Shown here in pieces: positions 16,464 to 55,777 of a stretch of DNA of 64,000 bases (position 1 is the stretch's first letter; each line of letters starts with the position of its first letter). The stretch is from NCBI GenBank assembly GCA_902384685.1, contig CABMCU010000108.1:2344-66343 (forward strand). The letters are read 5' to 3'. The position numbers and the translations under genes are program-made. Under the pieces are notes generated by a model. The model was not told the origin of the DNA. It was given only the letters and a program-made list of their open reading frames with translations, and ran no database searches. Source of the DNA: an uncultured archaeon (GTDB lineage: Archaea > Thermoplasmatota > E2 > DHVEG-1).

Positions 16464-17708
16464 TTACTGATAGGATGTTTCTGTGTTGGTTTTGGTTTGT
16501 CCAAAGAGTCGTACTCCAGGGTAGACTTTTGCTTCAATAGCATGATTTGGTTTGTAGCAGATTTTAATGTGGCTGATGTATCGGACAAGTGCAGCTGAGA
16601 AATCTTGCTGTTGAATCCGTACTGCTGTCTGATAGGAGGTCAGGTCAAATTCTTGGGTAGCGTCGTCTTGTTCAACACCAAGGAAATCAAGGAGCAGTAT
16701 TTTTTTCTCTGGGATACAAGTGTTTTTCTCAATGAGATAATCGAAGAATGCTTCCCAGCGTGTCTCAAGGTTGTATTGGTCTGGGTGATACGCGCATTCC
16801 AGCCCGATTTTCTGGTCAATACCGTCTTCGGTGATGTTGATGTGAAGGACAATTCGAGAGGCAACACATTCAATTTCTTTTATAAGCGTTGTGAATTCGT
16901 TTTTATTATCTGTCCAACCGAGTGATTTAAGATAGGGAATGATATCTTCTGGGTTTATTTTGGAAATAATTAGGCGTAAGCCATTAGTTGCCCGGGAGAG
17001 CATGGAAGCTACGTGGAGAACTGATGCGCCTTTTGGTAGTTGCTGAAGCGCGTGGAGGAATCGTTTTTCCATTTTTTCAGAGAGCGGCTGTCCGTTGAGT
17101 AAGGGTAATGCAATGTGCGTAAGCCAGGAGCATTTTTGAATATCCTCTAGGGTATCTATACGAAGGGATGGTACTTGGATGAAGATATTGGGAACCGGTG
17201 TTTCGGATGGAATGGTGGTGTCAAACTCAAACCAGAGGCCGAGTACCTTGTTGTATAAAACGGAAGAAGGATCAGCCCATGCGGCTGCTAACTTCCCGAC
17301 ATTCTGCCATTGATTCATGGAGCGAAATTCTTTTGGAAGTGATTCGTTTGTAAAAACCTGGGCCAACGCCTCTCGTTCTCCCCTCTTGGATGATACCGCG
17401 AACAGGTAATCTGCTTGTGCATCAGAGGAGTTCAGACGAGATTCAAATCCAAAGAAACTGGTGATGCCTCCAGTCAAGTGAGATGCAAGTTTCTTCATTT
17501 CTGTAAAGTTCTGAGCAGAGATCAAATCATCTGGGATATTAGATTCAACTGAGGATAAATACTGAACAGCAGTTAAATTTTTCAGAGAAGTTTTTCGAAG
17601 ATGTATTGTTTCAGAAATGAATGCCTTTCTACTTTGAAAGTCGCTTATTTCTCCAAATGGGAATGATTCGAAGTTAGTTTCAAACCCATATTTATATATT
17701 TCATTCAT
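16464..17708 (-). CDS. Hypothetical protein, paralogue B (unknown family) of the radical-SAM operon
   Basis: Paralogue of 14981..16228. Start set at ATG 17708 (MNEIYKYGFE...). Confidence 0.5.
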   Translation of the reverse strand: MNEIYKYGFETNFESFPFGEISDFQSRKAFISETIHLRKTSLKNLTAVQYLSSVESNIPDDLISAQNFTEMKKLASHLTGGITSFFGFESRLNSSDAQADYLFAVSSKRGEREALAQVFTNESLPKEFRSMNQWQNVGKLAAAWADPSSVLYNKVLGLWFEFDTTIPSETPVPNIFIQVPSLRIDTLEDIQKCSWLTHIALPLLNGQPLSEKMEKRFLHALQQLPKGASVLHVASMLSRATNGLRLIISKINPEDIIPYLKSLGWTDNKNEFTTLIKEIECVASRIVLHINITEDGIDQKIGLECAYHPDQYNLETRWEAFFDYLIEKNTCIPEKKILLLDFLGVEQDDATQEFDLTSYQTAVRIQQQDFSAALVRYISHIKICYKPNHAIEAKVYPGVRLFGQTKTNTETSYQ

Positions 17709-17980
17709 TCTTTTCGTTCCCCAATTCAAACAATACACCTGGAAAACATAAAGCCCTCTTCCGAGAAAATCCTACAAAATGCGAAAAATCCGACTTTTTA
17801 TTTACGTTTGCCGGAAATGGGGGAAAAATTGTGTTCATCCCATATGTGATAATGAACGTAATGAAAGATATCTCTAATTTGGAATTACCTGAATATTTTT
17901 TGTCTAATATACCAGTCTCTCGTGGTGACGCTAATCAGAAGATACAATTGTATCTAAACATTAGAAAAAGTCCTCCCTAT

Positions 17981-19989: not shown

Positions 19990-20961
19990 ATGGTAACGAT
20001 TGATTTGAAGGATAGAAAAATTCTCTACGAACTCGATTTAGATAGTCGACAATCGAACACTCAAATAGGTAAAAAAGTTGGCCTGAAAAAAGATGTTATC
20101 TCATATAGAATAAAACGAATGCAAGATGAGGGCGTTATAATAAATTTTTGGACAGCTATCAATACATTTAAACTTGGATATCACGTCTATAGAATTTATA
20201 TTAATTTTCAATATGTTAGCTCACAAATTAAAGAAAAGATTATTCAACATTTTATTGACTATAGAAATGTATGGGCTGTTATCTCTCTAAAAGCAGAAAT
20301 TGATTTTGATATTGTCGTGTGGGTTAAAGATATTTACGAATTTTATCAATTCTGGAATACGACACTTGATGAATTTGAGGATTATTTCGCGAAGTACACC
20401 CTTTCTGTATATGTTGAAGCGTTCAACTATAAAAAATCGTATTTACTTCCAGATAAATCCAACCATGGAGAACGTCTATTGTATGGAACGGCTTGTACTG
20501 GAAAACCAGTAGAAATCGATGAAATTGATTATAAACTATTAGATGAAATTGCCATTAACGCTCGAATGCCGCTAATAGACCTTACTGAAAAACTCGGATG
20601 CTCATCGCAAACCGTGAATTACCGGTTAAAGAACTTGATAAAAAACAACGTGGTTAATGCGTTTCGAGTGAATGTCGATTTATCAAAAATAGGGCTTCAA
20701 CATTATAAATTAGAGATCTATTTAAAGGATCACAAGCAGAAAAACGCTATATGGAATTATTTGAAAGAACAACCGTATTGCGATACACTGAATGTCGCTA
20801 TCGGATGGAGCGATTTAGAATTTGAAATAATTGTAGAAAACGTACAAAAATTAGGGCAGATTATGGAAGAAATCGATGCGAAATTTCCTAATACTATTAA
20901 AAAACAAAGTTTTTGGATTTTTGATAAAGTTCATAAAGAACGATGGCTACCTAAATTTTAA
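19990..20961 (+). CDS. Tandem Lrp/AsnC-type transcriptional regulator (two HTH + two RAM-like halves)
   Basis: Two HTH_AsnC-like segments (DLKDRKILYELDLDSRQSNTQIGKKVGLKKDVISYRIKRMQDEGVI and DEIDYKLLDEIAINARMPLIDLTEKLGCSSQTVNYRLKNL). Divergent to the radical-SAM operon. Confidence 0.55.
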   Translation: MVTIDLKDRKILYELDLDSRQSNTQIGKKVGLKKDVISYRIKRMQDEGVIINFWTAINTFKLGYHVYRIYINFQYVSSQIKEKIIQHFIDYRNVWAVISLKAEIDFDIVVWVKDIYEFYQFWNTTLDEFEDYFAKYTLSVYVEAFNYKKSYLLPDKSNHGERLLYGTACTGKPVEIDEIDYKLLDEIAINARMPLIDLTEKLGCSSQTVNYRLKNLIKNNVVNAFRVNVDLSKIGLQHYKLEIYLKDHKQKNAIWNYLKEQPYCDTLNVAIGWSDLEFEIIVENVQKLGQIMEEIDAKFPNTIKKQSFWIFDKVHKERWLPKF

Positions 20962-21339: not shown

Positions 21340-21882
21340 TCATGAACGTTGATAAAGTGATTGCCCGATAGAATCCATCGCGACAACAAGCGGACCAAAC
21401 TCTTTTACCTCAAGGATCCAGACTGCCTCAGGCATCCCAAATTCCTCAAACCAATAGACTTGGGAAACATTAGTGATTTTCTCTGCTGCAAGCACTCCAG
21501 CACCCCCCGGAAATGCAGTGTACACTGATCCGGTTTTCTTCAATGCTTTTTTGGTTCTTTCCCCCATACCACCCTTCCCAATAATCAAATGAATATTAAA
21601 CCGATCAAGGAGGATGTCTTCAAATTCTTCCATGCGACTGCTCGTCGTAGGACCCGCAGACACTGCGGTCCATCGCCCATTTTCTTTCTTCATCAACGGT
21701 CCGCAATGATACAACGCCATAGGTGACGGATCAAAGGGAAGATCCTTTAGTTTCATCCCCCGCATCTTCGCATGCGCCCTATCACGCGCAGTAAAAATAT
21801 TCCCTGTTACATAAATGATATCGTTCACCCGTAATTTTTTTAAAACATCAGACGATATTGGAATGGTTACATAATACTCCAA
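21340..21882 (-). CDS. fumB: Fumarate hydratase class I, beta (C-terminal) subunit
   Basis: ~180 aa. Fe-S hydro-lyase beta-type sequence. Adjacent to the alpha subunit. Confidence 0.8.
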   Translation of the reverse strand: MEYYVTIPISSDVLKKLRVNDIIYVTGNIFTARDRAHAKMRGMKLKDLPFDPSPMALYHCGPLMKKENGRWTAVSAGPTTSSRMEEFEDILLDRFNIHLIIGKGGMGERTKKALKKTGSVYTAFPGGAGVLAAEKITNVSQVYWFEEFGMPEAVWILEVKEFGPLVVAMDSIGQSLYQRS

Positions 21883-21883
21883 A

Positions 21884-22744
21884 TTATTTCACCTCCCAAC
21901 TCCCATCTTTATGAATAATCATAGATGCTCGGCGATCTGCCCAACACTGAATCACCACACCAACAGGAAGACTTGCCGGGTGGCGGTGTGCAACCTCTAC
22001 ATGAACATCGAGCGCCGTAACCTTTCCACCAAGCCCCATCGGACCGATACCGGTCTTATTAATCATCGTAAGAAGCTCTTCTTCCAAAGTGGCTATGAGT
22101 TTCTCAACATGACGATTACCAACTGGTCGTAACAATGCGCGTTTTCCTAGGTTCATCACTAAATCGGCATTCCCGCCAATACCAACCCCAACTACAATCG
22201 GTGGACATGGTCTGCCACCAGCCTTTTTTACTGTACTAACAACAAATTGTTTTACGCCCTCAAGCCCAGTAATCGGAGATAACATTCCTAACGCACTCAT
22301 ATTCTCGCTACCACTCCCCTTCGGTAACGTCATGATATGAACAGCATCCCCTTGCTCAAAATCCCAGAGAATATGCGGGAGATACGACCCAAGATTATCG
22401 CCATGGTTTGTACTGGTCATGGGATCAACAGTATTCGGTCGTAACGGGATTTCTAGAGTTGCACGAACAACTGCATGTTCAATAGTTTGTTTTAATCTCC
22501 CTATCGCCGGAAACCCAGTTCCGACGTTTACAAAAAACGTTAAAATACCGGTATCCTGACACATAGGACATCGTTTTTTCTTCGCCATTTCAACATTCGC
22601 AAGCATTCCTTCAAGCTGTACCTTCGCAGCCCCGGTTTCAACAGAAAACGCTTGTTTTAAAGCAGCGATAACATCTGGTGGGATCTCTGTTTCTGCTTTC
22701 AATATTAACTGCAGAAGACCAGCTTCAAGATCTTTTCGATCCAT
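21884..22744 (-). CDS. fumA: Fumarate hydratase class I, alpha (N-terminal) subunit
   Basis: Cys ligands CPMCQDTG ... C; hydro-lyase Fe-S alpha-type. Start taken at the ATG giving MDRKDLEAG. Confidence 0.8.
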   Translation of the reverse strand: MDRKDLEAGLLQLILKAETEIPPDVIAALKQAFSVETGAAKVQLEGMLANVEMAKKKRCPMCQDTGILTFFVNVGTGFPAIGRLKQTIEHAVVRATLEIPLRPNTVDPMTSTNHGDNLGSYLPHILWDFEQGDAVHIMTLPKGSGSENMSALGMLSPITGLEGVKQFVVSTVKKAGGRPCPPIVVGVGIGGNADLVMNLGKRALLRPVGNRHVEKLIATLEEELLTMINKTGIGPMGLGGKVTALDVHVEVAHRHPASLPVGVVIQCWADRRASMIIHKDGSWEVK

Positions 22745-22819
22745 TGTGTCTCCACAGAACCATATCACATTGAACAGATAAGTTTTTTCTATTCAAAAAG
22801 GAAAAAAATAAAAGCGGAT

Positions 22820-24805
22820 TTACCGCTTCTTTCCAATCTCATCAACTGCTTCTGGGTTTGCTAATGTTGAGGTATCACCGACTTCTTGACCAAGTGCTTT
22901 TGCTCGGATTACTCGTCGCATAATCTTTCCGCTTCTTGTTTTTGGTACATCAGAGACAAACCAAATCTCGTCAGGTCGAGCGAGTTTTCCCATCTCTTTT
23001 GCAACGTGGTCTCGCAGTATTTTTTTCAGGTCCTCAGTTGCTTCTACACCTTTCTTTAAAACAACATAGGATGTGATCGATTCTCCTTTCTCCTCATGAG
23101 GTTTTCCAATTACTGCAGCTTCTGCAACCAGAGGATGACTGACAAGGGCAGATTCGACTTCTGAGTTTCCGATTCGGTGACCGGAAATCTTCAGTACATC
23201 ATCTGCTCGTCCCTGGATCCAGAAGTATCCGTCGCTATCTTGGCGAGTTACATCACCAGCGAGGTAGACACCTTTGTACTTCCCCCAGTAGGTTTCTTTG
23301 TATCGCTCTGGATTTTTATAAATACCTCTTAGCATCCCTGGCCATGGGTGGAGTAACACGAGGTTTCCACCACCATTTAATACTGGTTGGCCTTGCTCGT
23401 TGTAAACGGCGGCAGCCATCCCAGGTAATGCTCTTGTTGCAGAGCCTGGTTTCAACGGGGTAATCGGTAATGGGGAAATGACGAAATGCCCGGTTTCAGT
23501 TTGCCACCAGGTGTCCATGATTTGACAGCGTTCACCACCAATATTTTTATAGTACCAGATCCAAGCTTCCGGATTGATTGGTTCTCCGACCGATCCAAGT
23601 AATCGCAGACTACTAAGGTCGTGTTTCTTCGGCCAGTCCTCACCGTGTCTCATAAACAATCGAACACTGGTCGGTGATGTGTAGAACACACTTACACCGT
23701 ACCGTTCAATGATATCCCACCAACGATCAGGTTGTGGCCAGTCAGGTGCTCCTTCATAGATTACTGAAGTTGCACCAAGGATAAGCGGTGCATAAGCGAT
23801 ATAGGAATGTCCGGTAACCCAGCCGATATCAGCGGCGCACCAGTACACATCTTCGTCTTTAATATCAAAGACCCATTTCAAGGTTTGTGCAATACCAACT
23901 GCGTATCCTGCATGAGCATGGATAATTCCTTTTGGCTTTCCTGTCGTCCCGGAGGTATAGAGGAAATATAACGGGTCGTTTGCGTCAAGTTTCTCTGTCT
24001 CACATTCACGAGACATACCCTTAGTGATTTCATGCCACCAAACGTCTTTACTTTTATTCCAGTTTACTTCATCTCCGGTTCTTTTATAGACAATTACATG
24101 TTTCACACTAGGTGCTTCTTTGACTGCTTCATCAGTCTGATTCTTTAAAGGAACTTTTTTACCACGTCGCCAAAAACTATCACAGGTAATCACTGCTTTT
24201 GCTTCACAGTCGTTCATCCGGTCACGGAATGCAGATGCGCTGAATCCAGAAAATACTACGGAGTGGATCGCACCAATCTTTGCACAAGCAAGCATTGCCA
24301 TCGGTAATTCTGGTATCATGGGAAGATAAATACCAACACGATCGCCTTTCTTAATACCCATTTTTCGTAAAGCGTTAGCAAATTTATTAACTTCAATATA
24401 CAAATCATTATACGTTAATTTTCGTATGTCACCTGGTTCTCCTTCGAAGATGAAAGCAACTTTGTTTTTACGCCAGGTTTTCACATGCTTGTCAATTGCA
24501 TCGTGGACAATGTTATATTTCGCGTCGACAAACCATTTCACCCAGGGTGCTTCCCATTCAATAGTTTTTTTTGGAGGTGTGTACCATTCTACAAGATCTT
24601 TAGAGACTTCTTCCCAAAACCATTCCCAGTTATCAGCTTTTTTGTACAGGTCGTCGATTGTTTTTATGTTATGTTTATCCATCCACTGCTTCACATTCGT
24701 GTTATTCACAAATTCTTTTGTTGGTTTAAAAACCCGTTTTTCGTCCATGAGGACCGATATGTTTTCGTCAGTCATGTTAAAATCTCTCCCAAGTTCTTCA
24801 TCCAA
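22820..24805 (-). CDS. acs: Acetyl-CoA synthetase (AMP-forming)
   Basis: 661 aa. Motifs [20 protein letters not shown], terminal ...RSGKIMRR. A hairpin (AAGCGGATTTACCGCTT) overlaps the stop, followed by a T-tract. Confidence 0.9.
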
Positions 24806-24966
24806 TTATTCATATTATTATATATATCTAATGTTGGTAGCCTATAAAGACCCTTGAAATGATGGTCTTTAAAGCAGTTCCCTATCAAGTAATAGGGATG
24901 TGCCGCAATAGAGTTGTAGTATAAGTAGTTTTTCATCTTTTCTTTTGATTTTTCTCGATAAAACAT

Positions 24967-26049
24967 CTATGAAACACCACAAATAATCTTGTTGACAAGG
25001 GGTGGAAAATCAAACTCTTTAATCACTTCCATACGCTCTACCATATAAGTACTAATGAATGGTGGGTGGGAGAATAAATTATTTTCTTTTAGAAACCTGA
25101 TTTTATTCATTTCATCTTCTTTGTAATCTTGATAGGTCTGGTAAACTGAGAGGAGAACTGCTTCAAATTTCCTGCTTGCAAAAAATATTGTTGATGGAGA
25201 ATTCAAGAATGAGAAATCATGCGTGCTGGGGGCTTTATTTAAGTTGAATCTGATGTGATAGAATGTGAGGATTTCTACACCTAATGTTTTGAGATTTGGG
25301 AGGATGAGCGTCTGTAACAATCCTTCTTCGAAAAATTCTTTTTTCATGCGAGCGACCGTATGTCGTGAAAGATTAACGAGATTCCCTATTTGTTGTGTAG
25401 TCGCGGTTGGATGCTCTACCAACGCGCTGTACACTTTTTTTTCTTTCGATGTTAATGCAACCGTCGTGACGTTGCGGAAGAGATCAGAGGTTATTGATAT
25501 TTTTTGTGTATCGCCTAGTCCGTATACGTTTTGGAAAAACGCGGAGAAATCAAAAAATCGGTGGATGTAACTTGTTTCAAATGGAAAGATTACTTCATGA
25601 GGATATTCTTTCTCCAGGAGTCCAAGTTTTCCAAATGTTTCTGTTCGTATCTCATTAATTCGTCCAATGTTGGTGTAATTCTGTGAGAGACTAATCGAGA
25701 ATCCTTTTTCTTCTTCTCCTACAGAAAAAAAGATTTCATCGAAAACTTCAATGGTCCGTTTGGTCGTCTCTATCCTCTCTTTTAGTGGAATCACAGGATT
25801 GAATTGCATGTAAATAATCGCGAGGAGTTCACAACCAAGGCGGTTGGGGAGCGGGAAGATGATGGTTCGGTAATATCCTTGTGTCGTGAGTCGTCGTTTG
25901 ATCGATGTGAATGTAGATAGTTTCATCTGTAATATCGCAGAAAGTTCACTGTCGGTGATAGTTGGGTAATTGCAGATTCCGTTTAGGACTTTTTTTTCGT
26001 TTTTGTTTAATATTGGTTGATTCACAGTCCCGGAACGAAAAACACCCAT
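24967..26049 (-). CDS. Putative transcriptional regulator with two winged-helix (MarR/Lrp-like) HTH domains
   Basis: Two HTH-like segments (EKKVLNGICNYPTITDSELSAILQMKLSTFTSIKRRLTTQGYY and EKKVYSALVEHPTATTQQIGNLVNLSRHTVARMKKEFFEEGLL). Sits divergently between acs and the aconitase-idh-acl operon. Confidence 0.45.
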   Translation of the reverse strand: MGVFRSGTVNQPILNKNEKKVLNGICNYPTITDSELSAILQMKLSTFTSIKRRLTTQGYYRTIIFPLPNRLGCELLAIIYMQFNPVIPLKERIETTKRTIEVFDEIFFSVGEEEKGFSISLSQNYTNIGRINEIRTETFGKLGLLEKEYPHEVIFPFETSYIHRFFDFSAFFQNVYGLGDTQKISITSDLFRNVTTVALTSKEKKVYSALVEHPTATTQQIGNLVNLSRHTVARMKKEFFEEGLLQTLILPNLKTLGVEILTFYHIRFNLNKAPSTHDFSFLNSPSTIFFASRKFEAVLLSVYQTYQDYKEDEMNKIRFLKENNLFSHPPFISTYMVERMEVIKEFDFPPLVNKIICGVS

Positions 26050-26233
26050 AAATAATTATCTCATATTACTCAATTATTTTTTAAATTTTAGTAAAAAGAG
26101 CAATAAAATAAATAAATTTTGCTAAATTACTATATATTTTCCTCTGAATCGTCTATATGAGGAAATCATTACCAAAAGTTTATTAAACCTTTTTTATATT
26201 TCCGCACCAACAGCTAACACGAGAGGTTTGATT

Positions 26234-28174
26234 ATGGGAAAAACAATCACAGAAAAAATACTTGCTACCCACATTATAGAAGGAAAATCAGAAAAAGGAA
26301 AAGAAGTCGGTATTAAAATAGACCAAACACTCACCCAAGATGCTACTGGAACCATGGCGTATCTTCAATTTGAAGCAATGAATGTTCCAAAAGTTAAAAC
26401 GGAACTATCTGTTAGTTACGTTGATCACAATACCGTTCAAATCGGTTTTGAAAATGCAGACGACCACAAATATTTACAAAGCGTCGCTGCAAAATACGGC
26501 ATCGTCTACTCACGTGCTGGAAACGGAATCTGTCATCAGATTCATCTCGAGCGATTCGGAAAACCAGGTAAAACACTTCTTGGTTCAGATTCACATACTC
26601 CCACAGGTGGAGGCATCGGTATGATCGCAATTGGTGCCGGAGGACTTGATGTTGCCGTCGCAATGGCTGGAAGACCTTTCTACCTCACCTACCCAAAGGT
26701 TATCAAGATTAATCTTACTGGAAAACTCAGACCCTGGGTGGCTGCAAAAGATGTGATTTTAAAAGTTCTCGAAATTTTCTCGACCAAGGGAAACGTAGGG
26801 TATGTTTTTGAATACGGTGGTGAAGGTGTCAAAACACTCTCTGTTCCAGACCGTGCAACCATCACGAACATGGGTGCAGAATGTGGAGTGACTACTTCGG
26901 TTTTTCCTAGCGATGAGACTACGAAACAATTCCTCAAAGCGCAGGGCAGGGAAAAAGACTGGGTTGAACTTCTCGCAGACGATGATGCAACTTATGACCG
27001 CGTCGTCAACATCAACCTTAGTGAGCTTGAGCCACTCGCAGCAACACCACACAGCCCTGGCAACATTAAGAAAATAAGGGACATCGAAGGCCTAGCTGTT
27101 GATCAGGTCTGTATCGGAAGCTGTACAAACTCCTCCTATACTGACATGATGACAATTGCCAACATTCTGAAAGATAAGAAAGTCCACCCGAATGTCAGTT
27201 TCGTCGTCGCCCCTGGGTCAAAACAAGTACTTGAAAATATTACTCGAGATGGTGGCCTTGCGTATCTCTTTGGTGCTGGCGCGCGACTTGCTGAATCCGC
27301 CTGCGGGTTCTGCATTGGGAATAGCCAGTCGCCAAAATCCGGTGCGATTTCATTACGTACGAGTAATCGAAAATTTCTTGGAAGATCAGGAACCAAATAC
27401 GCACAGGTTTATCTTGTCAGCCCTGAGACCGCTGCTGCAGCTGTTATCACCGGTAAAATCACCGACCCACGAGATTTAGAAAAAATTAACATCCAATATC
27501 CCAAGATGACGATGCCGAAGAAATTCTATATCGACGATGGTATGTTCATTATGCCTCCCGCAGATTCCTCGAAAATCAGAATTCAGCGTGGACCAAACAT
27601 CGGTGAACCACCGAAAAACACCGCGCTTCCTGAGTCAATCAAAGCAGAAGTCACTATCAAAGTCGGTGATGAAATCACCACGGACCACATCATCCCCGCT
27701 GGAGCGAAAATGAAGTATCGCTCTAATATCCCGAAATACGCAGAGTTCCTCTTTGAAGTTGTTGATCCGAAGTTCTATGATCGTGCGAAAAAGATTAAGG
27801 AATCTGGCTTGCAAAATGTTATTGTCGCTGGTGTCAGCTATGGCCAAGGGTCCTCACGGGAACATGCTGCTCTCTGTCCTATGTATATGGGCGTGAAAGT
27901 AGTTATTGCGAAAAGCATGGAACGAATCCATAAGGCAAACCTGATTAACTTTGGAATTATTCCCTTAACCTTCGTAAACAAAGAGGATTACATACTCATT
28001 GATCAGGGAGACCACCTTGAGATACCTGGGATACGTAAAGTACTTTCAGGCAAAGGAAACAGTGTAACAGTCATCGATACGACAAAGGGAAAGGAATTCC
28101 AAACGGCCTTTGATCTTACAGAACGTGACAAGAAAATCATCCTTGTGGGGGGGTCACTCAACTACATAAAATAA
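26234..28174 (+). CDS. acn: Aconitate hydratase (aconitase family, ~650 aa form)
   Basis: Aconitase motifs GSDSHT, Fe-S ligand Cys in IGSCTNSS and CGFCIG, swivel domain at C-terminus. GAGAGG RBS 8 nt upstream of ATG 26234. Confidence 0.85.
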
Positions 28175-28193
28175 GAAAGGAGAAATCAAACAT

Positions 28194-29429
28194 ATGAAAA
28201 AAAGAATTGACACCAAAAACAAGATTAAAATGAAAAATACGATCGTAGAAATCGATGGAGATGAAATGACCAGAGTTATGTGGTCAATGGTCAAAGAGAA
28301 ACTCCTCATTCCGTTTCTTGACATGAATCTTGAGTATTATGATCTCGGATTGAAAACACGTGATGAAACCGATGATAAAATCACTATTGAGGCAGCAAAT
28401 GCGATTAAAAGACATGGTGTAGGTGTCAAATGTGCGACAATCACGCCGAACAAAGATCGTATTAAGGAATACAATTTAAAAAGGGAATGGCCAAGTCCGA
28501 ATGGTACCATTCGAGCAATCCTCGATGGAACAGTATTCCGCAGTCCAATCCTGGCTAAGAACATTCCACCTTGTGTACGGAATTGGACGAAACCAATTCA
28601 TATCGGCAGACACGCATACGGTGACGTCTACAAGAATCAGGAAATTCGTGTTCCTGGGCCAGGAAAAGCAGAGCTATCGTTTACACCCGCTGACGGTGGA
28701 CAACCCATGAAACTAACTATACATGAGTTCAAAGGACCAGGAATCATCCAGGGGATTCACAACACTGACAAGTCCATCAATAGCTTTGCAAAAGCATGTT
28801 TCACCTATGCATTGGATCTCAAAGTACCTCTTTGGTTTGCAGTGAAAGACACCATCTCAAAGACGTATGATGCGCGATTCCGGCAGATTTTCCAGGAGGA
28901 GTTTGAGAAAAACTGGAAGAAAAAATACGAGGAAACAGGAATCGAATATTTCTTTACTTTAATAGATGACGCTGTCGCTCGTATCATGAAATCCGAAGGC
29001 GGTATACTATGGGCATGTAAGAACTATGATGGAGATGTGTTATCTGATATGCTTGGGTCCGCGTACGGGAGTCTTGCGATGATGACCTCTGTCCTTGTAT
29101 CGCCAGAAGGATTCTTTGAATATGAGGCGGCGCATGGGACCGTTCAGAAACATTATTATAAATATTTGAAAGGTGAGAAGACCAGTTCAAATCCCATGGC
29201 TCTTATTTTCGCTTGGACCGGTGCCTTGAAGAAACGAGGGGAGTTGGATAACACCCCGGACGTCGTCGAATTTGCTCATAAACTTGAACAGGCATCATTA
29301 GAGACAATTCAAAGTGGTATCATGACCGGAGATCTTCTCAGGGTAGTATTACCGAATCAGAAAAACAAACAAGTCTACACTGAGGAGTTCATTGATTCAA
29401 TCGCGGATCATTTGAAGAAAAAAATGTAA
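28194..29429 (+). CDS. idh: NADP-dependent isocitrate dehydrogenase, eukaryote-type (subfamily II)
   Basis: Near-collinear match to the IDH1/IDH2-type enzyme ([13 protein letters not shown]..., [38 protein letters not shown]). AGGAG RBS upstream. Confidence 0.9.
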
Positions 29430-29446
29430 AAAAAGGAGGATGAAAT

Positions 29447-30724
29447 ATGGCGCAGAAAGCAATCCGAGAGGCAGACGGAAAACGCATGATCGCACGTTTA
29501 CTAAAAGAGTATACGAATAAGAAATATACCGTCGATGAGAAGTTTGTGACGGTTGGACCACAGACCGATCTAAAGCGACTTCCGGCTATCTACAAATGGC
29601 TTATGAAAGAAAAACTGGTGGTAAAACCAGACCAACTTATCAAAAGACGAGGGAAAAGCAAACTTTTACTTCTGAATGTGGATTGGAAGGAAGCGGAGAA
29701 ATGGATTAAACAGCACATGAACAAACCAGTAACTGTTGGAACTGTAACCGGTACTCTTGATCATTTTATCGTTGAACCATTCGTTCCACATAATGAGAAT
29801 GATGAATATTACCTTGCGATCCTCTCACAGCGAGAAGGTGATCAGATATTATTCCATCGTCAGGGCGGTATTAACGTCGGTGATATTGATGCAAAGGCAG
29901 TTCGTATGAGTATCCCAATTGGGACGTATCCATCCGCTTCAGATATTGAGAAAAAACTTCTTAGCAACGTTCCGAAGGAACGACGAGAACTGATTGCGGG
30001 TTTCATTGAAGGAATGTTTAAATTCTATGCAGATCTCAACTACACCTACCTTGAGATTAACCCATTTGTCGTGAGTAATAATCGTGTTTTCCCCTTAGAT
30101 CTTGCAGCGAAACTCGATGACACCGCTGAGTTTATCAGCGGGAAAAAATGGGGTGGAATAAAATTTCCATCACCGTTTGGACGCACGCTTTCAAAAGAAG
30201 AAGCATATATCGAAGACCTTGATTCTAAGACAGGTGCATCATTAAAACTCACAGTCATCAACCCGGAAGGACGGGTGTGGACCATGGTCGCGGGTGGTGG
30301 AGCATCCGTCATTTACGCAGACACAATTACAGACCTGGGGTTCATGAATGAGATGGCGAACTATGGTGAATACTCTGGTGATCCAAACGAAGAATTCACT
30401 TATCTTTATGCACGAACAATCCTAGATCTGATGACCCGGAAGAAAAATCCGAAGGGAAAATTCTTACTGATTGGTGGTGGTATCGCAAACTTTACCGATG
30501 TTGCGAACACGTTCAAAGGTATAGTAAGAGCCTTGAAAGAATACAAAGAGAAACTCCGTGAAAACAAAGTGAAGATCTATGTTCGTCGAGGTGGACCAAA
30601 CTACAAAGAAGGTCTCCGGGTCATGCGGGAGTTAGGGGAGCAGCTCGGTGTTCCGATTGAAGTCTACGGACCAGAGACACATATGACAAAGATTGTTACA
30701 ATGGCGTTGAAAGGAGGGAAGTAA
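29447..30724 (+). CDS. aclB: ATP-citrate lyase subunit B (ATP-grasp, small subunit)
   Basis: N-terminus aligns with human ACLY N-terminus ([55 protein letters not shown]). AAGGAGG RBS. Confidence 0.85.
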
Positions 30725-30726
30725 CC

Positions 30727-32565
30727 ATGGCAAGAAAAGAATATATTTTGTTTGATAAAGATACCCAGGCGTTCATCTATAACATGCAGACTAATGCCGT
30801 GCAGCGGATGTTGGATTTCGATTATGTTGCAGGCAGAAAAACTCCTTCTGTTGCTGCGATTATCAACCCAACCGGATCTGATGGTTTCCAAAAGTTCTTC
30901 TTCGGGCCAAAAGAAATTCTTGTCCCGGTGTATAAATCAATGAAGAACGCAATGGATCGATATAAAAACGTGGATGTGATGATCAATTTTGCATCATTCC
31001 GGTCCGCTGCAGCGTCAACCGAGGAAGCATTTGCGTTTCCGCAGATTAGAACGGTTGTAATTATCGCAGAAGGTATCCCGGAACGTAGAATGCGGGAGTT
31101 GATTGCAAGAGCAAAACAACTGAATAAAATCATTATCGGGCCAGCGACCGTCGGAGGAATTGTTGCCAGAGCATTTAAAATCGGGAACACCGGGGGAACT
31201 ATTGAGAATATCATGGATTCGAAACTTCATCGACCAGGCTCAGTTGGTTTTGTGTCAAAATCTGGTGGGTTGAGTAACGAGGCATACAACATTGTGGCAC
31301 AGAACACAGATGGTCTCTATGAGGGAATAGCGATTGGTGGCGATCGGTACCCTGGGTCGACTTTACTGGAGCATTTATTACGATTCGAGAAGAACCCTGC
31401 GATTAAAATGCTCGTATGTCTCGGGGAAGTCGGTGGTTCTGACGAATATACAATTGTTGATGCGTTGAAAAAGAAGCAGATCACTAAACCCCTTGTGATG
31501 TGGGTGACGGGGACCTGTTCGAAAGCTTTTAAAACCGAGGTCCAGTTTGGTCATGCGGGAGCAAAGGCAGGCTCAGATTCCGAAACAGCGGATGCGAAGA
31601 ACGATGCACTCAAAGCAGCAGGCGCTGTTGTTCCGAATTCCTTTGATGATTACGGAGAGAAAATTGCGATGGTCTATAGAGACCTCGTGAAAAGGAAAAT
31701 CATCGTCCCTACACTAGAACCCCCTGTTGTGAAGATCCCGATGGATTATAACACAGCCATAAAAGCGAAACTGGTGAGACGGCCAGCGAACTTCATTTCT
31801 ACAATTTCCGATGATCGTGGTGAAGAGCTCCTCTATGGAAATATGCCGATCTCTGAGGTGTTCAAAAAAGATATTGGTATCGGTGGTGTGCTTTCTATCC
31901 TGTGGTTTAAGAAACTATTACCCGACTATGCGACGAAGTTCATTGAAATGGCGATCATGGTGACCGCTGATCATGGACCTGCCGTGTCAGGTGCGCATAA
32001 CACGATTGTTGCGGCTCGCGCAGGCAAAGATCTTATTTCTTCTCTTGTCTCTGGGATGCTTACCATCGGTCCACGGTTCGGTGGTGCTATTGATGGTGCT
32101 GCACAGATGTTCTCTGAGGCGTATGATGCGGGTAAAACACCTCAGCAGTTCGTCGATGATATGAAAATAAAAGGAGTCAATATCCAAGGGATTGGTCATC
32201 TCGTGAAATCCATCCACAATCCTGACATGCGTGTCACAATAATTAGTTCATATGCAAAGAAGCATTTCAAGAGCACCCCGCTTCTTGATTATGCACGAGA
32301 AGTGGAGAAAATCACGACATCAAAAAGGGATAATCTCATTTTGAATGTGGATGGATGCATTGGGATTTGTTTTGTCGATTTACTGAGATCAGAGCTGACG
32401 AAGCAAGAAGCAGATGACTATATCAAAATGGGTGCATTGAACGGCTTGTTCGTCCTTGGTCGGAGTATCGGATTAATCGGACATTATCTTGATCAGAAGC
32501 GTCTGAAACAGGGTTTGTACCGCCACCCCTGGGACGATATTGCATATATGCTTCTAGAAAAATAA
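30727..32565 (+). CDS. aclA: ATP-citrate lyase subunit A (CoA-binding/phosphohistidine + citrate-synthase-like domain)
   Basis: 612 aa. Phosphohistidine motif [11 protein letters not shown]-terminal citrate synthase-like region. 2-nt spacer after aclB with GGAGGG RBS. Confidence 0.85.
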
Positions 32566-32582
32566 TGAAACACATAGATATG

Positions 32583-32612
32583 AGCCGCTCATCTCGGCTT
32601 TTTCTTTTTTTT
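32583..32612 (+). terminator. Hairpin plus T-tract terminator-like element after aclA
   Basis: GAGCCGctcatctCGGCT followed by TTTTCTTTTTTTT. Confidence 0.45.
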
Positions 32613-32672
32613 GTTATATTTTAATTTATTCATGCAATATAAAATAAAAATTGTTATTCCCATTAAATTGTG

Positions 32673-33993: not shown

Positions 33994-34281
33994 TTACTTT
34001 GCGAGAACTATCTCGATTGATGAGACGTTTGAGGTTCGTCCTTCTTCGTTGGTGATCGCTTCTGTTCCGATGCGTATTTCTTTGACCTTTGCATCAGAGG
34101 CAAACCGATTTCTGGTTATTTCTGCTGCATCGACTGCTCTGCTAATCGCTCGCCCTCGCGCTTTTATAATCACTTCCGATGATCCGCTGTTGAACTGGGT
34201 AACGACTGCCAGAACGTAGCTCATTGGTGGTTTGTTTCCTACATAGATCACGTTTTCTTCGCTTTCTTCTTTTGCTGTCAT
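33994..34281 (-). CDS. alba: Chromatin protein Alba
   Basis: [22 protein letters not shown]...[21 protein letters not shown]. Start moved to the ATG at 34281 (MTAKEESE...), 95 aa. Confidence 0.85.
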
Positions 34282-34364
34282 ATACTCTACCTCTCTGTTA
34301 GTTTCTAGGTTAGTAAGCGGTCCGATGGGCGTTATCATTTATATACATTTCGTAATTTTATTTC

Positions 34365-35714
34365 TTACGGCATCGGAGCATTTATTAGTTTTCGGAGTTT
34401 GAAAAGCACTTCCTCTGGATTTTTTCCTAAAATACGGATCATTGGTTCCTTCCCAACAGAACCTGTATCATAAATAGCATCTGGTAATCGACCAAGTAAT
34501 GCAATTGCATATTTCGTTCCCCATTCCATGGTTGATGCGGCATCTGATGGTTCGTTCTTTCTGTCAAATGAACCAAGAGTAAAACCAATTTGTTTGCAGA
34601 GATCTACTGTTTTTTGTGAATATCGAATGTTTACCGCTGATCGCATCGACGCATCATACGACATCGCAGCAAGAATAATAGATGCAACATGTTTCGAGAC
34701 ACCAAACTCAATAATACCACAAAGAGTGAGTCGTTCTTTGTTTTTTATGAGTCTTCCATCGACTGCACAAACGTCGTTTCTTGTTTTTGCGTTTGGAAGT
34801 GCGTACGCAAAATTCATCCCAACTTCAGGGATATACTGTGAGGGCAGAAAGGAAACCAACGTATCGATTGCGGTTTTCAGTTGGAGCCAGACCAAGAATT
34901 GTTCATTATTTCGAATAAGAGGCGGGATTTGAATTGCAGAAGAATGATTGAGAACATCAGAACCTTTCCCAGGATAATATCCTTCCTGGATCATACCCCA
35001 GACAATATGCTTTGCTTTCTCGACCGCATTGACCGGTGTTTCTCCTAATGCAAGGAGTCCGGTTATGAGAGCTGAAAGAGTACAGCCAGATCCATGCGCT
35101 TTTTTCTGGGGGATGCGTGGGAGAGTAAATCTATAAAACTGTTTTCCATTATAGAGGAGGTCAGTAACCATATCATCTGGTAAATGCCCGCCTTTGAGTA
35201 AGACGTAATTTGGACCTAGTTTGTAGATTTTTTTGCATGCGTTTTCGCCATCTTTTTGTTGAATGATTTCCATGTTAGTGAGTGCGCATGCCTCAGGAAT
35301 ATTTGCCGTAACCATCAATGCTTGAGGCAAGAGTTCTTTTTTTAGTGAAGCAACAAATGTATGATTTGTAAGTGAGTCACCGCTGGTTGCAACCATCACT
35401 GGGTCAACGACAGGTTTTATATTGTATGCTTTAAGGTTTTTTGCAACAACCCGTATGATTGATTCATCATATAGCATACCGGTTTTTACTGCAGTGATTG
35501 AAAAGTCATCAAACAGACTTTCTATTTGATCTTCAATATTATCAGCAGGTACTGTATAGATAGCTCTGACCTGTCGTGTGTTTTGTGCAGTAATACAGGT
35601 AACCACAGTGATTCCATATACCCCAAGGTATGAAAATGATTTCAGATCTGCTTGTATCCCTGCACCAGCGGATGAGTCGGATCCTGCGATACTGAGTGCA
35701 ATCTTTTTTTCCAT
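34365..35714 (-). CDS. thiDN: Bifunctional hydroxymethylpyrimidine/phosphomethylpyrimidine kinase fused to a ThiN-type thiamine-phosphate synthase domain (ThiDN)
   Basis: ThiD N-half (ALSIAGSDSSAGAGIQADLK, VVDPVMVATSGD). Extra ~180-aa C-terminal domain as in archaeal ThiDN fusions. Confidence 0.7.
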   Translation of the reverse strand: MEKKIALSIAGSDSSAGAGIQADLKSFSYLGVYGITVVTCITAQNTRQVRAIYTVPADNIEDQIESLFDDFSITAVKTGMLYDESIIRVVAKNLKAYNIKPVVDPVMVATSGDSLTNHTFVASLKKELLPQALMVTANIPEACALTNMEIIQQKDGENACKKIYKLGPNYVLLKGGHLPDDMVTDLLYNGKQFYRFTLPRIPQKKAHGSGCTLSALITGLLALGETPVNAVEKAKHIVWGMIQEGYYPGKGSDVLNHSSAIQIPPLIRNNEQFLVWLQLKTAIDTLVSFLPSQYIPEVGMNFAYALPNAKTRNDVCAVDGRLIKNKERLTLCGIIEFGVSKHVASIILAAMSYDASMRSAVNIRYSQKTVDLCKQIGFTLGSFDRKNEPSDAASTMEWGTKYAIALLGRLPDAIYDTGSVGKEPMIRILGKNPEEVLFKLRKLINAPMP

Positions 35715-36451
35715 TCAAACGTCAAATACTATTCAGATTTATATGGATTCTTCCTTTGTGAAATCCTGTATTAGATCATTCGTGCAATGAATTTTTTTGA
35801 AAAAATATTGTCTTTATTTGTCCAAAAATTCGTATGATAAATAGTAAACCACCATAAACCAGATAAATCGCGAAAAAACATTAGGTAAACTGGTTTACAA
35901 TTCCTTGACGTATGGAATGAGATTCCCATCATCTTGTTCTTCGAAAAGCGGTACTTGTTTCGGTATCGTCTTACGTTCCATGATTACATAATTTTTTGCT
36001 GTCATGTGTCCATTCCCTCCAGTGTTTGACGTGGTTAAGAATCGATAAAAATCAGGATGACGAACAGGCTTGGTAGTCGTGTTAGTGATCCCGATAATTC
36101 CTTCTTAATCTCTCCAATTTTTAGGTAACCATCGTTGAGTACATATACTTTCGTATTTGTGCAAAAAAACCATGTATAGTCATGGCAAGAAAAAGATATT
36201 TATAATAAAAAAGGGAAGGATGCTGGTCTCACTAGGAGGGATGGGATGCACTCTACAACTACCAGCTTAATTCCTTCCGGTTCAACGAAAGCGGCGCTGT
36301 TTTAAGAACCTTGTTTGTAGTTGTATAAGCAAGTAGTGATGTAGGTGCGGCACCACAGGCAGTTTGTTCTCCTGATATCTCCGAGTAGAGTTAGATTTAT
36401 ATGCTGTTCTTTTTTTACCACAGTTTGGGGAATTGTACATCTTTTACCTCT

Positions 36452-38931: not shown

Positions 38932-38951
38932 TACTCCTATCGAACATTTTT

Positions 38952-55707: not shown

Positions 55708-55777
55708 GATTTTTCCGTCCATTATAAGCATTATTAATATTATATATTTTCGTTAATAGAAATTAAAAAAGTAGTAT

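What the first reader, a model, noticed from the sequence alone, without database searches (positions are those of the whole stretch)
22820..32625. Eukaryote-like citrate-cleavage/TCA gene cluster: acs, regulator, aconitase, class II NADP-IDH, ATP-citrate lyase aclB/aclA
The aclB N-terminus aligns closely with the N-terminus of human ACLY ([23 protein letters not shown], ...[23 protein letters not shown]). The IDH is the eukaryote-type subfamily II enzyme rather than the usual prokaryotic type. Together with aconitase they form one operon with GGAGG-type ribosome-binding sites and a hairpin/T-tract terminator. A double-wHTH regulator and acs are divergent. Class I fumarase lies just upstream. 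This provides the citrate to acetyl-CoA plus oxaloacetate module, which could serve reductive TCA or cytosolic acetyl-CoA supply, in an archaeon whose other genes in this window suggest peptide fermentation (IOR, glycine cleavage, many peptidases).
Basis: partly seen in the sequence, partly recalled or inferred. Interest (0 to 1): 0.6.

Follow-up and report, generated by a model that had tools for sequence, protein, structure and literature searches.

The report
Archaeal ATP-citrate lyase operon, human-like
An uncultured Thermoplasmata-type archaeon carries a conserved gene cluster for aconitase, isocitrate dehydrogenase and an ATP-citrate lyase that is unusually similar to the human enzyme; the cluster is real, but this kind of archaeal enzyme and its link to eukaryotes are already published.

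Summary
Window 21340-32612 holds a divergent eight-gene cluster. On the minus strand: regulator, AMP-forming acs, fumA and fumB. On the plus strand: aconitase, type II NADP-IDH, aclB and aclA. The plus-strand genes have 17-19 nt or 2 nt gaps, Shine-Dalgarno sites and a hairpin plus T-tract at the end.

The ACL is intact, with all mapped catalytic and citrate-binding residues conserved. It is 55%/62% identical to the two halves of human ACLY. It scores higher against human ACLY than the Methanosaeta concilii enzyme does, and far higher than Chlorobium ACL. In rough NJ trees its clade (Thermoplasmata plus Bathyarchaeia) groups with opisthokont-type ACLY and one bacterial lineage. The order inside that group is unresolved.

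The eukaryote likeness applies to ACL only. The IDH is subfamily II but closest to bacterial members, and the aconitase is not the cytosolic type. The regulator is a tandem-duplicated Lrp/AsnC-like protein conserved next to the operon. Synteny holds across relatives.

The direction of flux cannot be settled from this window. The protein is already annotated as ACL in GenBank, and a Thermoplasmatota-eukaryote ACLY link was published in 2025. Verdict: a new member of a known kind, of moderate-to-low interest.

The parts
21340..21882 (-). fumB, class I fumarate hydratase beta subunit
   Evidence: PF05683 at 8e-42; TIGR00723 scores 202 bits against a cut-off of 145. Synteny is conserved. A terminator-like site lies at 21319-21297.
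21884..22768 (-). fumA, class I fumarate hydratase alpha subunit
   Evidence: PF05681 at 1.6e-95; NF004885 scores 345 bits against a cut-off of 276.
22820..24805 (-). acs, AMP-forming acetate--CoA ligase. The start codon is uncertain.
   Evidence: TIGR02188 scores 906 bits against 725. PDB 8rpk scores 760 bits. A terminator-like hairpin plus T-tract lies at 22830-22810.
24967..26049 (-). Tandem-duplicated Lrp/AsnC-like regulator: two copies of a winged HTH followed by an alpha/beta domain
   Evidence: Weak wHTH Pfam hits at residues 199-246. The two halves align at 28% over 71 aa, E = 3e-10. The AF2 model shows wHTH domains at 16-66 and 201-251. Foldseek top hits are Lrp/AsnC proteins, TM 0.64-0.70. 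Its position divergent from acn is conserved in relatives at 38-85% identity.
26050..26233 (.). Divergent AT-rich control region. It holds a conserved BRE/TATA-like AAAGTTTATTAAA at 26175-26187 for the acn operon and a conserved block at 26146-26165 that may be an operator.
   Evidence: Alignment of 14 orthologous intergenic regions; sequence. The promoter and operator roles are inferred.
26234..28174 (+). acn, aconitate hydratase of about 646 aa (TIGR01342/NF005558 type). The ORF finder starts it at a TTG at 26228; the likely start is the ATG at 26234, preceded by GAGAGG.
   Evidence: NF005558 scores 955 bits against 612, aligned from residue 3; sequence.
28194..29429 (+). icd, homodimeric subfamily II NADP-isocitrate dehydrogenase
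   Evidence: NF006156 scores 647 against 335 and TIGR00127 scores 545 against 397. The best PDB hit is 4aou at 602 bits. AGGAG lies 9 nt upstream.
29447..30724 (+). aclB, ATP-citrate lyase beta subunit (ATP-grasp plus citrate-binding domains)
   Evidence: PF24948 at 3e-94 and PF16114 at 5.5e-91. It is 55% identical to human ACLY residues 1-419. Residues G311, N348, T350 and R381 correspond to human G309, N346, T348 and R379. It is 100% identical to GenBank VVB61893.1.
30727..32565 (+). aclA, ATP-citrate lyase alpha subunit (CoA-binding, CoA-ligase and citryl-CoA-lyase modules)
   Evidence: PF02629, PF00549 and PF00285. It is 62% identical to human ACLY residues 488-1097. Residues E115, H276 and D542 correspond to human E599, H760 and D1026.
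32582..32612 (+). Hairpin (GAGCCG...CGGCTT) followed by a T-tract, the likely end of the operon transcript
   Evidence: The hairpin energy is not significant. The T-tract is the expected archaeal termination signal (established knowledge); its function here is inferred.

Best explanation
The locus is a conserved central-carbon gene cluster of an uncultured Thermoplasmata-related archaeon. One transcription unit, acn-icd-aclB-aclA, encodes three consecutive, individually reversible steps that link 2-oxoglutarate to acetyl-CoA plus oxaloacetate. These steps are NADP-IDH, aconitase, and a heteromeric ATP-citrate lyase of the archaeal type that resembles eukaryotic ACLY.

The operon is read divergently from a dedicated regulator, a tandem Lrp/AsnC-like protein. 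Behind the regulator lie AMP-forming acetyl-CoA synthetase and class I fumarase.

Shown: the gene identities, intact catalytic residues, the operon signals, the conservation of synteny, and the high similarity to eukaryotic ACLY.

Inferred: in this peptide-degrading anaerobe the module runs mainly towards citrate cleavage. 2-oxoglutarate derived from glutamate would be reductively carboxylated, isomerised to citrate, and cleaved with ATP to acetyl-CoA and oxaloacetate. The oxaloacetate could drain through malate and fumarate. This would be a partial reductive branch rather than obligatory autotrophy. The regulator probably senses an amino acid or organic acid.
For: - Family assignments are all above curated cut-offs.
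- Residue-level conservation of the human ACLY catalytic and citrate-binding residues.
- Gaps of 19, 17 and 2 nt with GGAGG-type sites, and a T-tract after aclA.
- The arrangement fumBA-acs-reg / acn-icd-aclBA is conserved in more than 15 Thermoplasmata MAG loci, and reg/acn-icd-aclBA extends to a 71%-identical UBA147 locus.
- Cassettes of acn, aclB and aclA joined to an IDH gene also occur in distant lineages: L036 (acn-icd-aclBA), L038 and, with aclA incomplete, L034 (IDH after aclA).
- In Bathyarchaeia the same icd-aclBA block (76%/70%/79% identity) lies next to a KOR-like 2-oxoacid:ferredoxin oxidoreductase and an AcnA, which is a reductive-TCA-like set.
- A related Thermoplasmatota class was reported to encode rTCA with ACL (PMC12220078).
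- Fumarase adjacency fits a route from oxaloacetate through malate to fumarate.
- Regulator fold.
Against: - Direction is not shown by anything in the window. No 2-oxoglutarate:ferredoxin oxidoreductase, fumarate reductase, malate dehydrogenase or citrate synthase was seen in these 64 kb, and the rest of the genome could not be searched.
- The adjacent acs is the acetate-activating AMP-forming type, which fits citrate synthesis from acetate at least as well.
- ACL is known to run towards citrate in Desulfobacter postgatei (Moller et al. 1987, cited in PMC12137691).
- The regulator's ligand and binding site are unknown, and the N-terminal effector-like domain is poorly modelled (pLDDT below 50 for residues 70-150).
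Confidence: 0.5

Rival explanations
1. The same enzymes run the other way. Acs activates acetate, ACL condenses acetyl-CoA with oxaloacetate to citrate and gains one ATP, and aconitase and IDH then make 2-oxoglutarate for glutamate synthesis. This would be an oxidative 'horseshoe' branch in an organism without citrate synthase.
For: - AMP-forming acs is conserved immediately next to the regulator and operon.
- There is a physiological precedent in Desulfobacter postgatei (reference 26 in PMC12137691).
- No citrate synthase was found in the window.
- An Lrp-type regulator is typical of amino-acid biosynthesis control (established knowledge of the family).
Against: - A peptide fermenter with many peptidases, IOR and glycine cleavage should not lack glutamate.
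- The Bathyarchaeia homologues sit beside a KOR-like enzyme.
- The absence of citrate synthase is untested genome-wide.
Confidence: 0.3
2. The cluster is part of a complete reductive TCA cycle used for autotrophic CO2 fixation.
For: ACL is the classical rTCA marker. Aconitase, IDH and fumarase are co-located. rTCA was proposed for Ca. Penumbrarchaeia. A KOR-like enzyme lies next to the block in Bathyarchaeia.
Against: - The window context is heterotrophic: peptidases, IOR and glycine cleavage.
- No OGOR, fumarate reductase, succinyl-CoA synthetase or pyruvate carboxylase was seen in 64 kb.
- ACL also occurs in non-autotrophs, including all eukaryotes.
Confidence: 0.15
3. The eukaryote likeness is an artefact, caused by eukaryotic contamination or a very recent transfer from a eukaryote.
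For: Identity to human ACLY (55%/62%) is about as high as that between human and a chytrid-like fungus in the trimmed alignments (60%/68%).
Against: - The subunits are split, in a prokaryotic operon with Shine-Dalgarno sites and no introns, and are embedded among archaeal genes.
- The block is conserved in dozens of independent MAGs at 70-93% identity.
- The clade is deep, with 100% bootstrap (under the Kimura distance) and internal divergence down to 70%.
Confidence: 0.02

Closest known systems
Methanosaeta (Methanothrix) concilii ACLY-A/B, PDB 6HXI/6ZNW (Verschueren et al. 2019)
   Same: Both are two-subunit archaeal ACLs with the same domain order. The window proteins score 517 and 852 bits against the two chains over full length.
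   Different: The window enzyme is closer to human ACLY than the M. concilii enzyme is: 522/857 bits against 426/789. It also comes from a different lineage, a Thermoplasmata-type heterotroph.
Human ACLY (e.g. PDB 6HXH, 6POE, 3MWD)
   Same: The two proteins are 55% and 62% identical to the N- and C-terminal halves. The residues corresponding to E599, H760, D1026, G309, N346, T348 and R379 are all conserved.
   Different: The window enzyme is split into two polypeptides without the roughly 60-residue linker at human positions 420-487. It is encoded in an operon with aconitase and IDH.
Thermoplasmatota ACL clades in published phylogenies (Santana-Molina et al. 2025, PMC11976288; Ca. Penumbrarchaeia, PMC12220078)
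   Same: These are ACLs from Thermoplasmatota. The 2025 paper states that the eukaryotic ACLY clade branches with 'Thermoplasmatota-E3' and ACLA/B with DPANN. rTCA with ACL is reported as core in class EX4484-6.
   Different: I could not establish whether the window lineage is the 'E3' group of that paper. No supplement is held and GTDB classification is not available here.
Chlorobium limicola AclAB, PDB 6HXJ (classical bacterial rTCA ACL)
   Same: Same reaction and same subunit and domain architecture.
   Different: Much more distant, at 162 and 398 bits. A classical bacterial representative (L043) is only 36%/38% identical.
Desulfobacter postgatei ACL (Moller et al. 1987)
   Same: It is the precedent for ACL working as an ATP-yielding citrate synthase in an acetate-using anaerobe, which bears on the acs adjacency seen here.
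   Different: It is a bacterial enzyme within a complete oxidative cycle. No sequence comparison was made here.
Bacterial subfamily II NADP-IDHs (Clostridium thermocellum 4AOU, Desulfotalea 2UXQ, Thermotoga 1ZOR) and Lrp/AsnC regulators (e.g. NMB0573 2P5V, PH1519 2CYY, AsnC 2CG4)
   Same: The IDH scores 602, 575 and 563 bits against these bacterial enzymes. Each regulator half superposes on Lrp/AsnC monomers at TM 0.64-0.70.
   Different: The regulator is a single-chain tandem of two such units. It gives no hit to the AsnC-type ligand-binding (RAM) Pfam domain (PF01037; family named from my own knowledge), and only about 300 homologues were found.

Membership tests
Heteromeric ATP-citrate lyase (AclAB, EC 2.3.3.8) | Beta subunit with an ATP-grasp domain and an ACL-specific citrate-binding domain | tested here: met
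   PF24948 scores 315 bits against a cut-off of 83, and PF16114 scores 303 bits against 26.8.
Heteromeric ATP-citrate lyase (AclAB, EC 2.3.3.8) | Alpha subunit that fuses the CoA-binding and CoA-ligase modules to a C-terminal citryl-CoA lyase (citrate-synthase-like) module | tested here: met
   PF02629, PF00549 and PF00285 lie in one 612-aa protein. It aligns end to end with human ACLY 488-1097.
Heteromeric ATP-citrate lyase (AclAB, EC 2.3.3.8) | Catalytic phospho-histidine (human H760), E599, the lyase aspartate D1026, and citrate-binding residues G309/N346/T348/R379 | tested here: met
   AclA E115, H276 and D542, and AclB G311, N348, T350 and R381, are identical in the HMMER alignments. The residue roles come from established literature on human ACLY.
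Heteromeric ATP-citrate lyase (AclAB, EC 2.3.3.8) | ATP- and CoA-dependent cleavage of citrate, measured in vitro | not testable with these tools
   This needs the purified enzyme.
Eukaryote-related ACL subgroup | Groups with eukaryotic ACLY to the exclusion of classical bacterial ACL | tested here: met
   PDB scores are human 522/857 against Chlorobium 162/398. The concatenated NJ group of window clade, opisthokont ACLY and L032 has 79-98% bootstrap, and 72-78% with L034 added.
Eukaryote-related ACL subgroup | Specific sister group of eukaryotic ACLY | tested here: inconclusive
   Bootstrap for 'window clade + eukaryotes' is 0-15% in the concatenated tree when L032 is present, 58-62% without L032, and 12-90% for AclB alone. 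'L032 + eukaryotes' gets 54-85%. The analysis used NJ only, with sparse and mostly unnamed sampling.
Subfamily II homodimeric NADP-IDH | Passes the curated models for the type II enzyme and not those for type I prokaryotic IDH | tested here: met
   NF006156 scores 647 against 335 and TIGR00127 scores 545 against 397. TIGR00183 prok_nadp_idh scores 20.6 against 567.
Lrp/AsnC (feast/famine) regulators | N-terminal HTH_AsnC-type domain plus C-terminal RAM (AsnC_trans_reg) ligand-binding domain, recognised by the family profiles | tested here: inconclusive
   Sequence profiles give only weak generic wHTH hits (HTH_24 at 26.9 bits, with no stretch passing on its own), no RAM-domain hit and no NCBIfam hit. 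The fold does match Lrp/AsnC proteins. So the protein looks and probably works like a fused Lrp dimer, but membership by sequence is not established.
Reductive TCA cycle (pathway) | ACL together with 2-oxoglutarate:ferredoxin oxidoreductase and fumarate reductase in the same genome | not testable with these tools
   Only ACL, aconitase, IDH and fumarase are in the window. The 2-oxoacid oxidoreductase in the window is IOR (TIGR03336, 783 bits). The rest of the genome could not be fetched.

The most novel reading that the evidence does not exclude
The Thermoplasmata/Bathyarchaeia ACL clade represented here could be the closest living prokaryotic relative of the fused opisthokont-type ACLY, closer than the Methanosaeta enzyme used as the structural stand-in. 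Its mobile icd-aclB-aclA block, kept together with acs under a dedicated metabolite-sensing regulator, could be a prokaryotic forerunner of the eukaryotic pairing of ACLY and acetyl-CoA synthetase for acetyl-CoA supply. Alternatively, ACL here could work as an ATP-conserving citrate synthase in a fermenter.
Probability: 0.15. Interest if true: 0.6.

Novelty: new member of a known kind. Interest (0 to 1): 0.3.

Why it matters
The origin of ACLY bears on how the eukaryotic cytosol came to make acetyl-CoA for lipids and for protein acetylation. A prokaryotic ACL that is as similar to the human enzyme as a fungal one is would be a useful comparator and a possible structural or biochemical model. 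Its operon partners suggest which reactions it was coupled to before eukaryotes.

For microbial ecology, the cluster shows how abundant sediment and wetland Thermoplasmata connect amino-acid carbon, acetate and the TCA branch.

The main evolutionary statement is already in the literature, however, so this window adds a well-resolved example rather than a new principle.

Tried and rejected
- **Naming representatives.** I tried to name 20 of the 50%-identity representatives through cluster look-ups. Only four carried names: Paraphysoderma, Sander, Intoshia and Victivallales. Most tree leaves are therefore anonymous.
- **AclB-only tree.** A 94-taxon AclB-only NJ tree left the deep nodes unresolved, with 22% or less support for window plus eukaryotes. 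I replaced it with a smaller concatenated AclB+AclA set, recovering AclA partners from contigs.
- **L032 AclA.** The AclA of L032 is 1004 aa and contains a partial internal duplication. I repeated the trees with the first copy only and without L032.
- **Literature access.** The Verschueren 2019 paper is not held. The supplement of Santana-Molina 2025 is not held. A text search for the GTDB class 'E3' found nothing useful. I therefore could not tie the window lineage to 'Thermoplasmatota-E3'.
- **Promoter and terminator scans.** The sigma-70 promoter scan is irrelevant for an archaeon and was not above shuffles (34 against 27.9). Terminator-like sites overall were not enriched (12 against 10.5). 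The aclA hairpin is not unusually stable (z = -1.2). I therefore rely on the T-tract and its position.
- **Possible operator.** The inverted repeat TTTCCTC/GAGGAAA (26138-26144 / 26159-26165) is complete only in the window. In relatives only the right arm is conserved. It is not claimed as an operator.
- **Contamination.** Rejected because of the operon structure and the archaeal flanks.

Full report
**What is there.**

- On the minus strand, reading away from the centre, lie four genes.
  - A 360-aa regulator (24967-26049).
  - An AMP-forming acetate--CoA ligase (22820-24805; TIGR02188 906 bits against a cut-off of 725).
  - The two subunits of a class I fumarase (fumA 21884-22768 and fumB 21340-21882).
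- On the plus strand lie four more genes.
  - Aconitase (26228/26234-28174; NF005558 955 against 612).
  - A subfamily II NADP-isocitrate dehydrogenase (28194-29429; NF006156 647 against 335, TIGR00127 545 against 397, and the prokaryotic type I model only 20.6 against 567).
  - aclB (29447-30724; PF24948 plus PF16114).
  - aclA (30727-32565; CoA-binding, CoA-ligase and citrate-synthase-like domains).

The rest of the window is plainly archaeal. It holds TFB, fibrillarin, Alba, an aRF1/Pelota-like protein and NFACT. It is also rich in protein-degradation genes: two C25, two M28 and one C15 peptidase, glycine-cleavage T and H, and a true indolepyruvate:ferredoxin oxidoreductase (TIGR03336, 783 bits).

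**Source.** AclB is 100% identical to GenBank VVB61893.1, 'ATP citrate lyase citrate-binding protein [uncultured archaeon]', on a 73-kb contig. The gene is therefore already deposited and annotated. The closest genomic relatives, at 82-93% AclB identity, are MAGs labelled Thermoplasmata, Thermoplasmatales, Thermoplasmatota or 'Euryarchaeota' from lake, wetland and spring sediments. A Methanomassiliicoccales-labelled UBA147 MAG is at 71% and Bathyarchaeia MAGs are at about 70%. A few short contigs in bins labelled as bacteria carry nearly the same gene and are probably binning errors.

**Operon anatomy.**

- The gaps are 19 nt (acn-icd), 17 nt (icd-aclB) and 2 nt (aclB-aclA).
- AGGAG lies upstream of icd, and GGAGG upstream of aclB and aclA. 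GAGAGG lies 7 nt before an in-frame ATG at 26234, which is the likelier acn start because the NCBIfam alignment begins at residue 3.
- After aclA there is a 6-bp GC-rich hairpin (32582-32600) followed by TTTCTTTTTTTT.
- The hairpin is not unusually stable (z = -1.2), and terminator-like patterns are not enriched in the region as a whole. What supports termination is the T-tract, the usual archaeal signal, together with its position. Similar sites lie directly after acs and after fumB.
- The 184-bp divergent intergenic region is AT-rich. In an alignment of 14 orthologous regions the most conserved element is AAAGTTTATTAAA (26175-26187), 47 nt before the acn ATG. That spacing fits an archaeal BRE/TATA box with a short leader carrying the ribosome-binding site. 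A second conserved block (26146-26165) lies just upstream and is a candidate regulator site. These roles are inferred.

**The regulator.** Pfam sees only weak generic winged-helix matches at residues 199-246 and NCBIfam sees nothing.

- The sequence is an internal duplication. Residues 14-84 align with residues 203-273 (18-88 of the C-terminal half) at 28% identity, E = 3e-10.
- An AlphaFold model built on 33 homologues (mean pLDDT 70.8, pTM 0.73) shows two winged-helix domains, at 16-66 and 201-251. Each is followed by an alpha/beta domain. The C-terminal one is confident, while the N-terminal one (70-150) is poorly modelled.
- Foldseek against the PDB returns only Lrp/AsnC 'feast/famine' regulators at the top (NMB0573, PH1519, AsnC, ST1022, E. 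coli Lrp). TM-scores normalised to the target are 0.6-0.7 over about 145 residues, which is one half of the protein.
It is a single-chain tandem of two Lrp/AsnC-like units, too divergent for the family's sequence profiles.
- It has only about 300 detectable homologues. It keeps its position divergent from acn in relatives down to 38-42% identity (L022, L023) and in a further lineage (L034) at 60% identity.

**Conservation of the cluster.** tblastn of the window proteins against the fetched loci gives the following picture.

- The full arrangement fumB-fumA-acs-reg / acn-icd-aclB-aclA recurs in the close Thermoplasmata loci. Most also have thiDN, iorAB and purL downstream.
- The arrangement reg / acn-icd-aclB-aclA recurs in UBA147.
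- In Bathyarchaeia the block is icd-aclB-aclA at 76%/70%/79% identity, without the window-type aconitase. There it lies beside a KOR-like two-subunit 2-oxoacid:ferredoxin oxidoreductase and an 883-aa AcnA.
- Contigs recovered for more distant AclB representatives show the same logic. An archaeal contig has TrmB-like regulator / acn-icd-aclB-aclA (L036). A Victivallales bacterium has acn-aclB-aclA followed by a monomeric IDH (L038). L034 has a reg orthologue (60%), acn (72%), aclB (53%) and a monomeric IDH.

Two conclusions follow. Second, aconitase, an IDH of whatever type and ACL behave as one functional cassette, and the icd-aclBA part appears to move between lineages. L034 shares a similar acn and regulator with the window but has a much more divergent ACL than Bathyarchaeia do.

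**Is the ACL eukaryote-like?** Yes, and specifically so.

| Comparison | AclB / N-half (bits) | AclA / C-half (bits) |
|---|---|---|
| Window vs human ACLY | 522 | 857 |
| Window vs M. concilii | 517 | 852 |
| Window vs Chlorobium limicola | 162 | 398 |
| Human ACLY vs M. concilii | 426 | 789 |

- BLASTP identity to the two halves of human ACLY is 55% and 62%.
- The window enzyme is closer to the human protein than M. concilii ACLY-A/B, the only archaeal ACL among the solved structures found (6HXI/6ZNW, the entries of Verschueren et al. 2019).
- In trimmed alignments, human ACLY is 54-59% (N half) and 59-62% (C half) identical to members of the window clade. It is 60% and 68% identical to a chytrid-like fungal ACLY. 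It is 45% / 55% or less identical to every other paired prokaryotic sequence sampled.
- Mapping from the HMMER alignments shows that AclA E115, H276 and D542 correspond to human E599, H760 and D1026. AclB G311, N348, T350 and R381 correspond to human G309, N346, T348 and R379. The enzyme should therefore be active.

**Trees.** No ML tree program is installed, so I used neighbour-joining with Kimura and gamma-corrected distances and bootstraps.

- With 94 AclB sequences (the window clade, human, and 50%-identity representatives from the 1.8-billion-protein library), the window clade is monophyletic but the deep nodes collapse.
- With 25 taxa for which both subunits were available, rooted on a classical bacterial pair (L043), the group {window clade + opisthokont-type fused ACLY + one bacterial lineage, L032} gets 98/92/79% bootstrap in the concatenation. 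It gets 72-78% when L034 is added.
- Within that group the order is unstable. AclB alone favours window plus eukaryotes (66-90% under Kimura distances, 12-76% with gamma correction). AclA and the concatenation favour L032 plus eukaryotes (54-85%).
- L032 is bacterial by context (bL33 and Mfd as neighbours), and its AclA is an odd 1004-aa protein with a partial internal duplication.
- The result is a real group-level affinity to eukaryotic ACLY, with sisterhood unresolved.

This agrees with the literature. Santana-Molina et al. 2025 report that the eukaryotic ACLY clade branches with 'Thermoplasmatota-E3' and ACLA/B with DPANN (PMC11976288). A 2022 preprint notes ACL in Asgard and Bathyarchaeota, with eukaryotes not monophyletic with Asgard. 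ACL with an rTCA set is described as core in Ca. Penumbrarchaeia (PMC12220078). I could not determine whether the window lineage is the 'E3' group.

**What is not eukaryote-like.** The IDH is indeed the subfamily II enzyme shared with eukaryotes, and from my own knowledge that subfamily is unusual for archaea. Its best solved relatives, however, are bacterial: Clostridium thermocellum 602 bits, Desulfotalea 575 and Thermotoga 563. Eukaryotic IDH1, IDH2 and IDP1 score 455-488. The aconitase is the roughly 650-aa TIGR01342/NF005558 type. It scores 339 bits against mitochondrial aconitase and 176 against cytosolic ACO1/IRP1. The acs is an ordinary prokaryotic Acs. The cluster as a whole is therefore not a eukaryote-like module; only the ACL is.

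**How it probably works.**

- Shown: three consecutive enzymes between 2-oxoglutarate and acetyl-CoA plus oxaloacetate are encoded as one unit, next to acetate activation and fumarase, under a conserved metabolite-type regulator.
- Inferred: the segment is thermodynamically reversible, and direction depends on the rest of the network, which I could not inspect.
- I favour citrate cleavage as a partial reductive branch in a heterotroph (about 0.5). The reasons are the KOR-like neighbour in Bathyarchaeia, the rTCA reading in a related class, the fumarase adjacency, and the fact that a peptide degrader has abundant glutamate and 2-oxoglutarate. From general biochemistry, a route from glutamate through citrate to two acetates would be redox-lighter than the oxidative route through succinyl-CoA.
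- The main rival (about 0.3) is the opposite direction, with ACL as an ATP-yielding citrate synthase fed by Acs, as in Desulfobacter postgatei (reference in PMC12137691).
- Full autotrophic rTCA is less likely (about 0.15), and artefact is essentially excluded.

**Verdict.** 'Eukaryote-like' should be restricted to ACL, and the physiological direction remains open. The kind of system is known: archaeal heteromeric ACL related to eukaryotic ACLY, with solved structures and published phylogenies, and this very protein is annotated in GenBank.

The modest additions made here are these:
- The window clade is more human-like than the M. concilii reference enzyme.
- The icd-aclBA block is shared between Thermoplasmata and Bathyarchaeia.
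- Cassettes of acn, aclB and aclA with an IDH gene recur across distant lineages, with non-orthologous IDH replacement.
- The conserved regulator is a fused double Lrp/AsnC-like protein.

I rate it a new member of a known kind, with interest about 0.3.

Noticed in passing
window 19990-20961 (+): A second tandem regulator: a 323-aa protein with two clear HTH_AsnC-type/HTH_24 domains (two stretches each, E about 1e-21). It sits just beyond fumB and is conserved in several relatives at 50-80% identity. The locus therefore carries two different fused double-Lrp-like proteins.
   Followed up: partly
L024 13387-19388 (Bathyarchaeia MAG): The icd-aclB-aclA block lies next to a KOR-like 2-oxoacid:ferredoxin oxidoreductase (an alpha subunit plus a fused beta-gamma subunit) and an 883-aa AcnA-type aconitase. 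This is a more complete reductive-TCA-like set than the window has.
   Followed up: partly
L034 6347-8581 and L038 8227-10446: In two other lineages a monomeric IDH (PF03971, about 740 aa) follows aclA in place of the type II IDH. This is a non-orthologous replacement within the same cassette.
   Followed up: partly
L032 2907-5921: A bacterial AclA of 1004 aa matches the window AclA twice (residues 1-594, then 144-611). It is either a partial internal duplication or an assembly artefact. This lineage tends to group with eukaryotic ACLY in the AclA and concatenated NJ trees.
   Followed up: partly
proteins P0244, P0277, P0278, P0289 (1012-1084 aa); P0205 (1116 aa): There is a second group of fused single-chain ACLs, only 36-39% (AclB part) and 40-47% (AclA part) identical to the window. 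The group is 100% supported (96-100% for the single-subunit alignments) and sits far from the opisthokont-type ACLY. The source organisms are unknown, so this may be an independent fusion or a separate eukaryotic clade.
   Followed up: no
L001, L021, L026, L029, L031: Short contigs in bins labelled as bacteria (CSSED10-310, Syntrophaceae, Methylomirabilota, Eubacteriales, Trueperaceae) carry ACL genes 70-93% identical to the archaeal window gene. They are most likely mis-binned archaeal contigs.
   Followed up: no
window 3527-5443 (+) and 58398-60320 (-): Two paralogous C25 (gingipain-type) peptidases of about 640 aa lie near opposite ends of the window. With them are two M28 peptidases (54385-55731, 57018-58316) and a pyroglutamyl peptidase (56309-57067).
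   Followed up: no
window 26138-26165: The inverted repeat TTTCCTC-N14-GAGGAAA lies just upstream of the putative acn promoter. In relatives only the right arm and the adjacent TTTATGTG block are conserved.
   Followed up: partly
window 33994-41303: The neighbourhood downstream of the operon is conserved: Alba, the bifunctional ThiD/ThiN, iorA-iorB and purL. thiDN, iorAB and purL recur downstream in many relatives (the order varies in a few loci; Alba was not compared).
   Followed up: partly
window 14981-16228 (-), 16464-17738 (-), 245-1885 (+): Three large ORFs (415, 424 and 546 aa) have no Pfam match at E <= 1e-5. They were not examined further.
   Followed up: no
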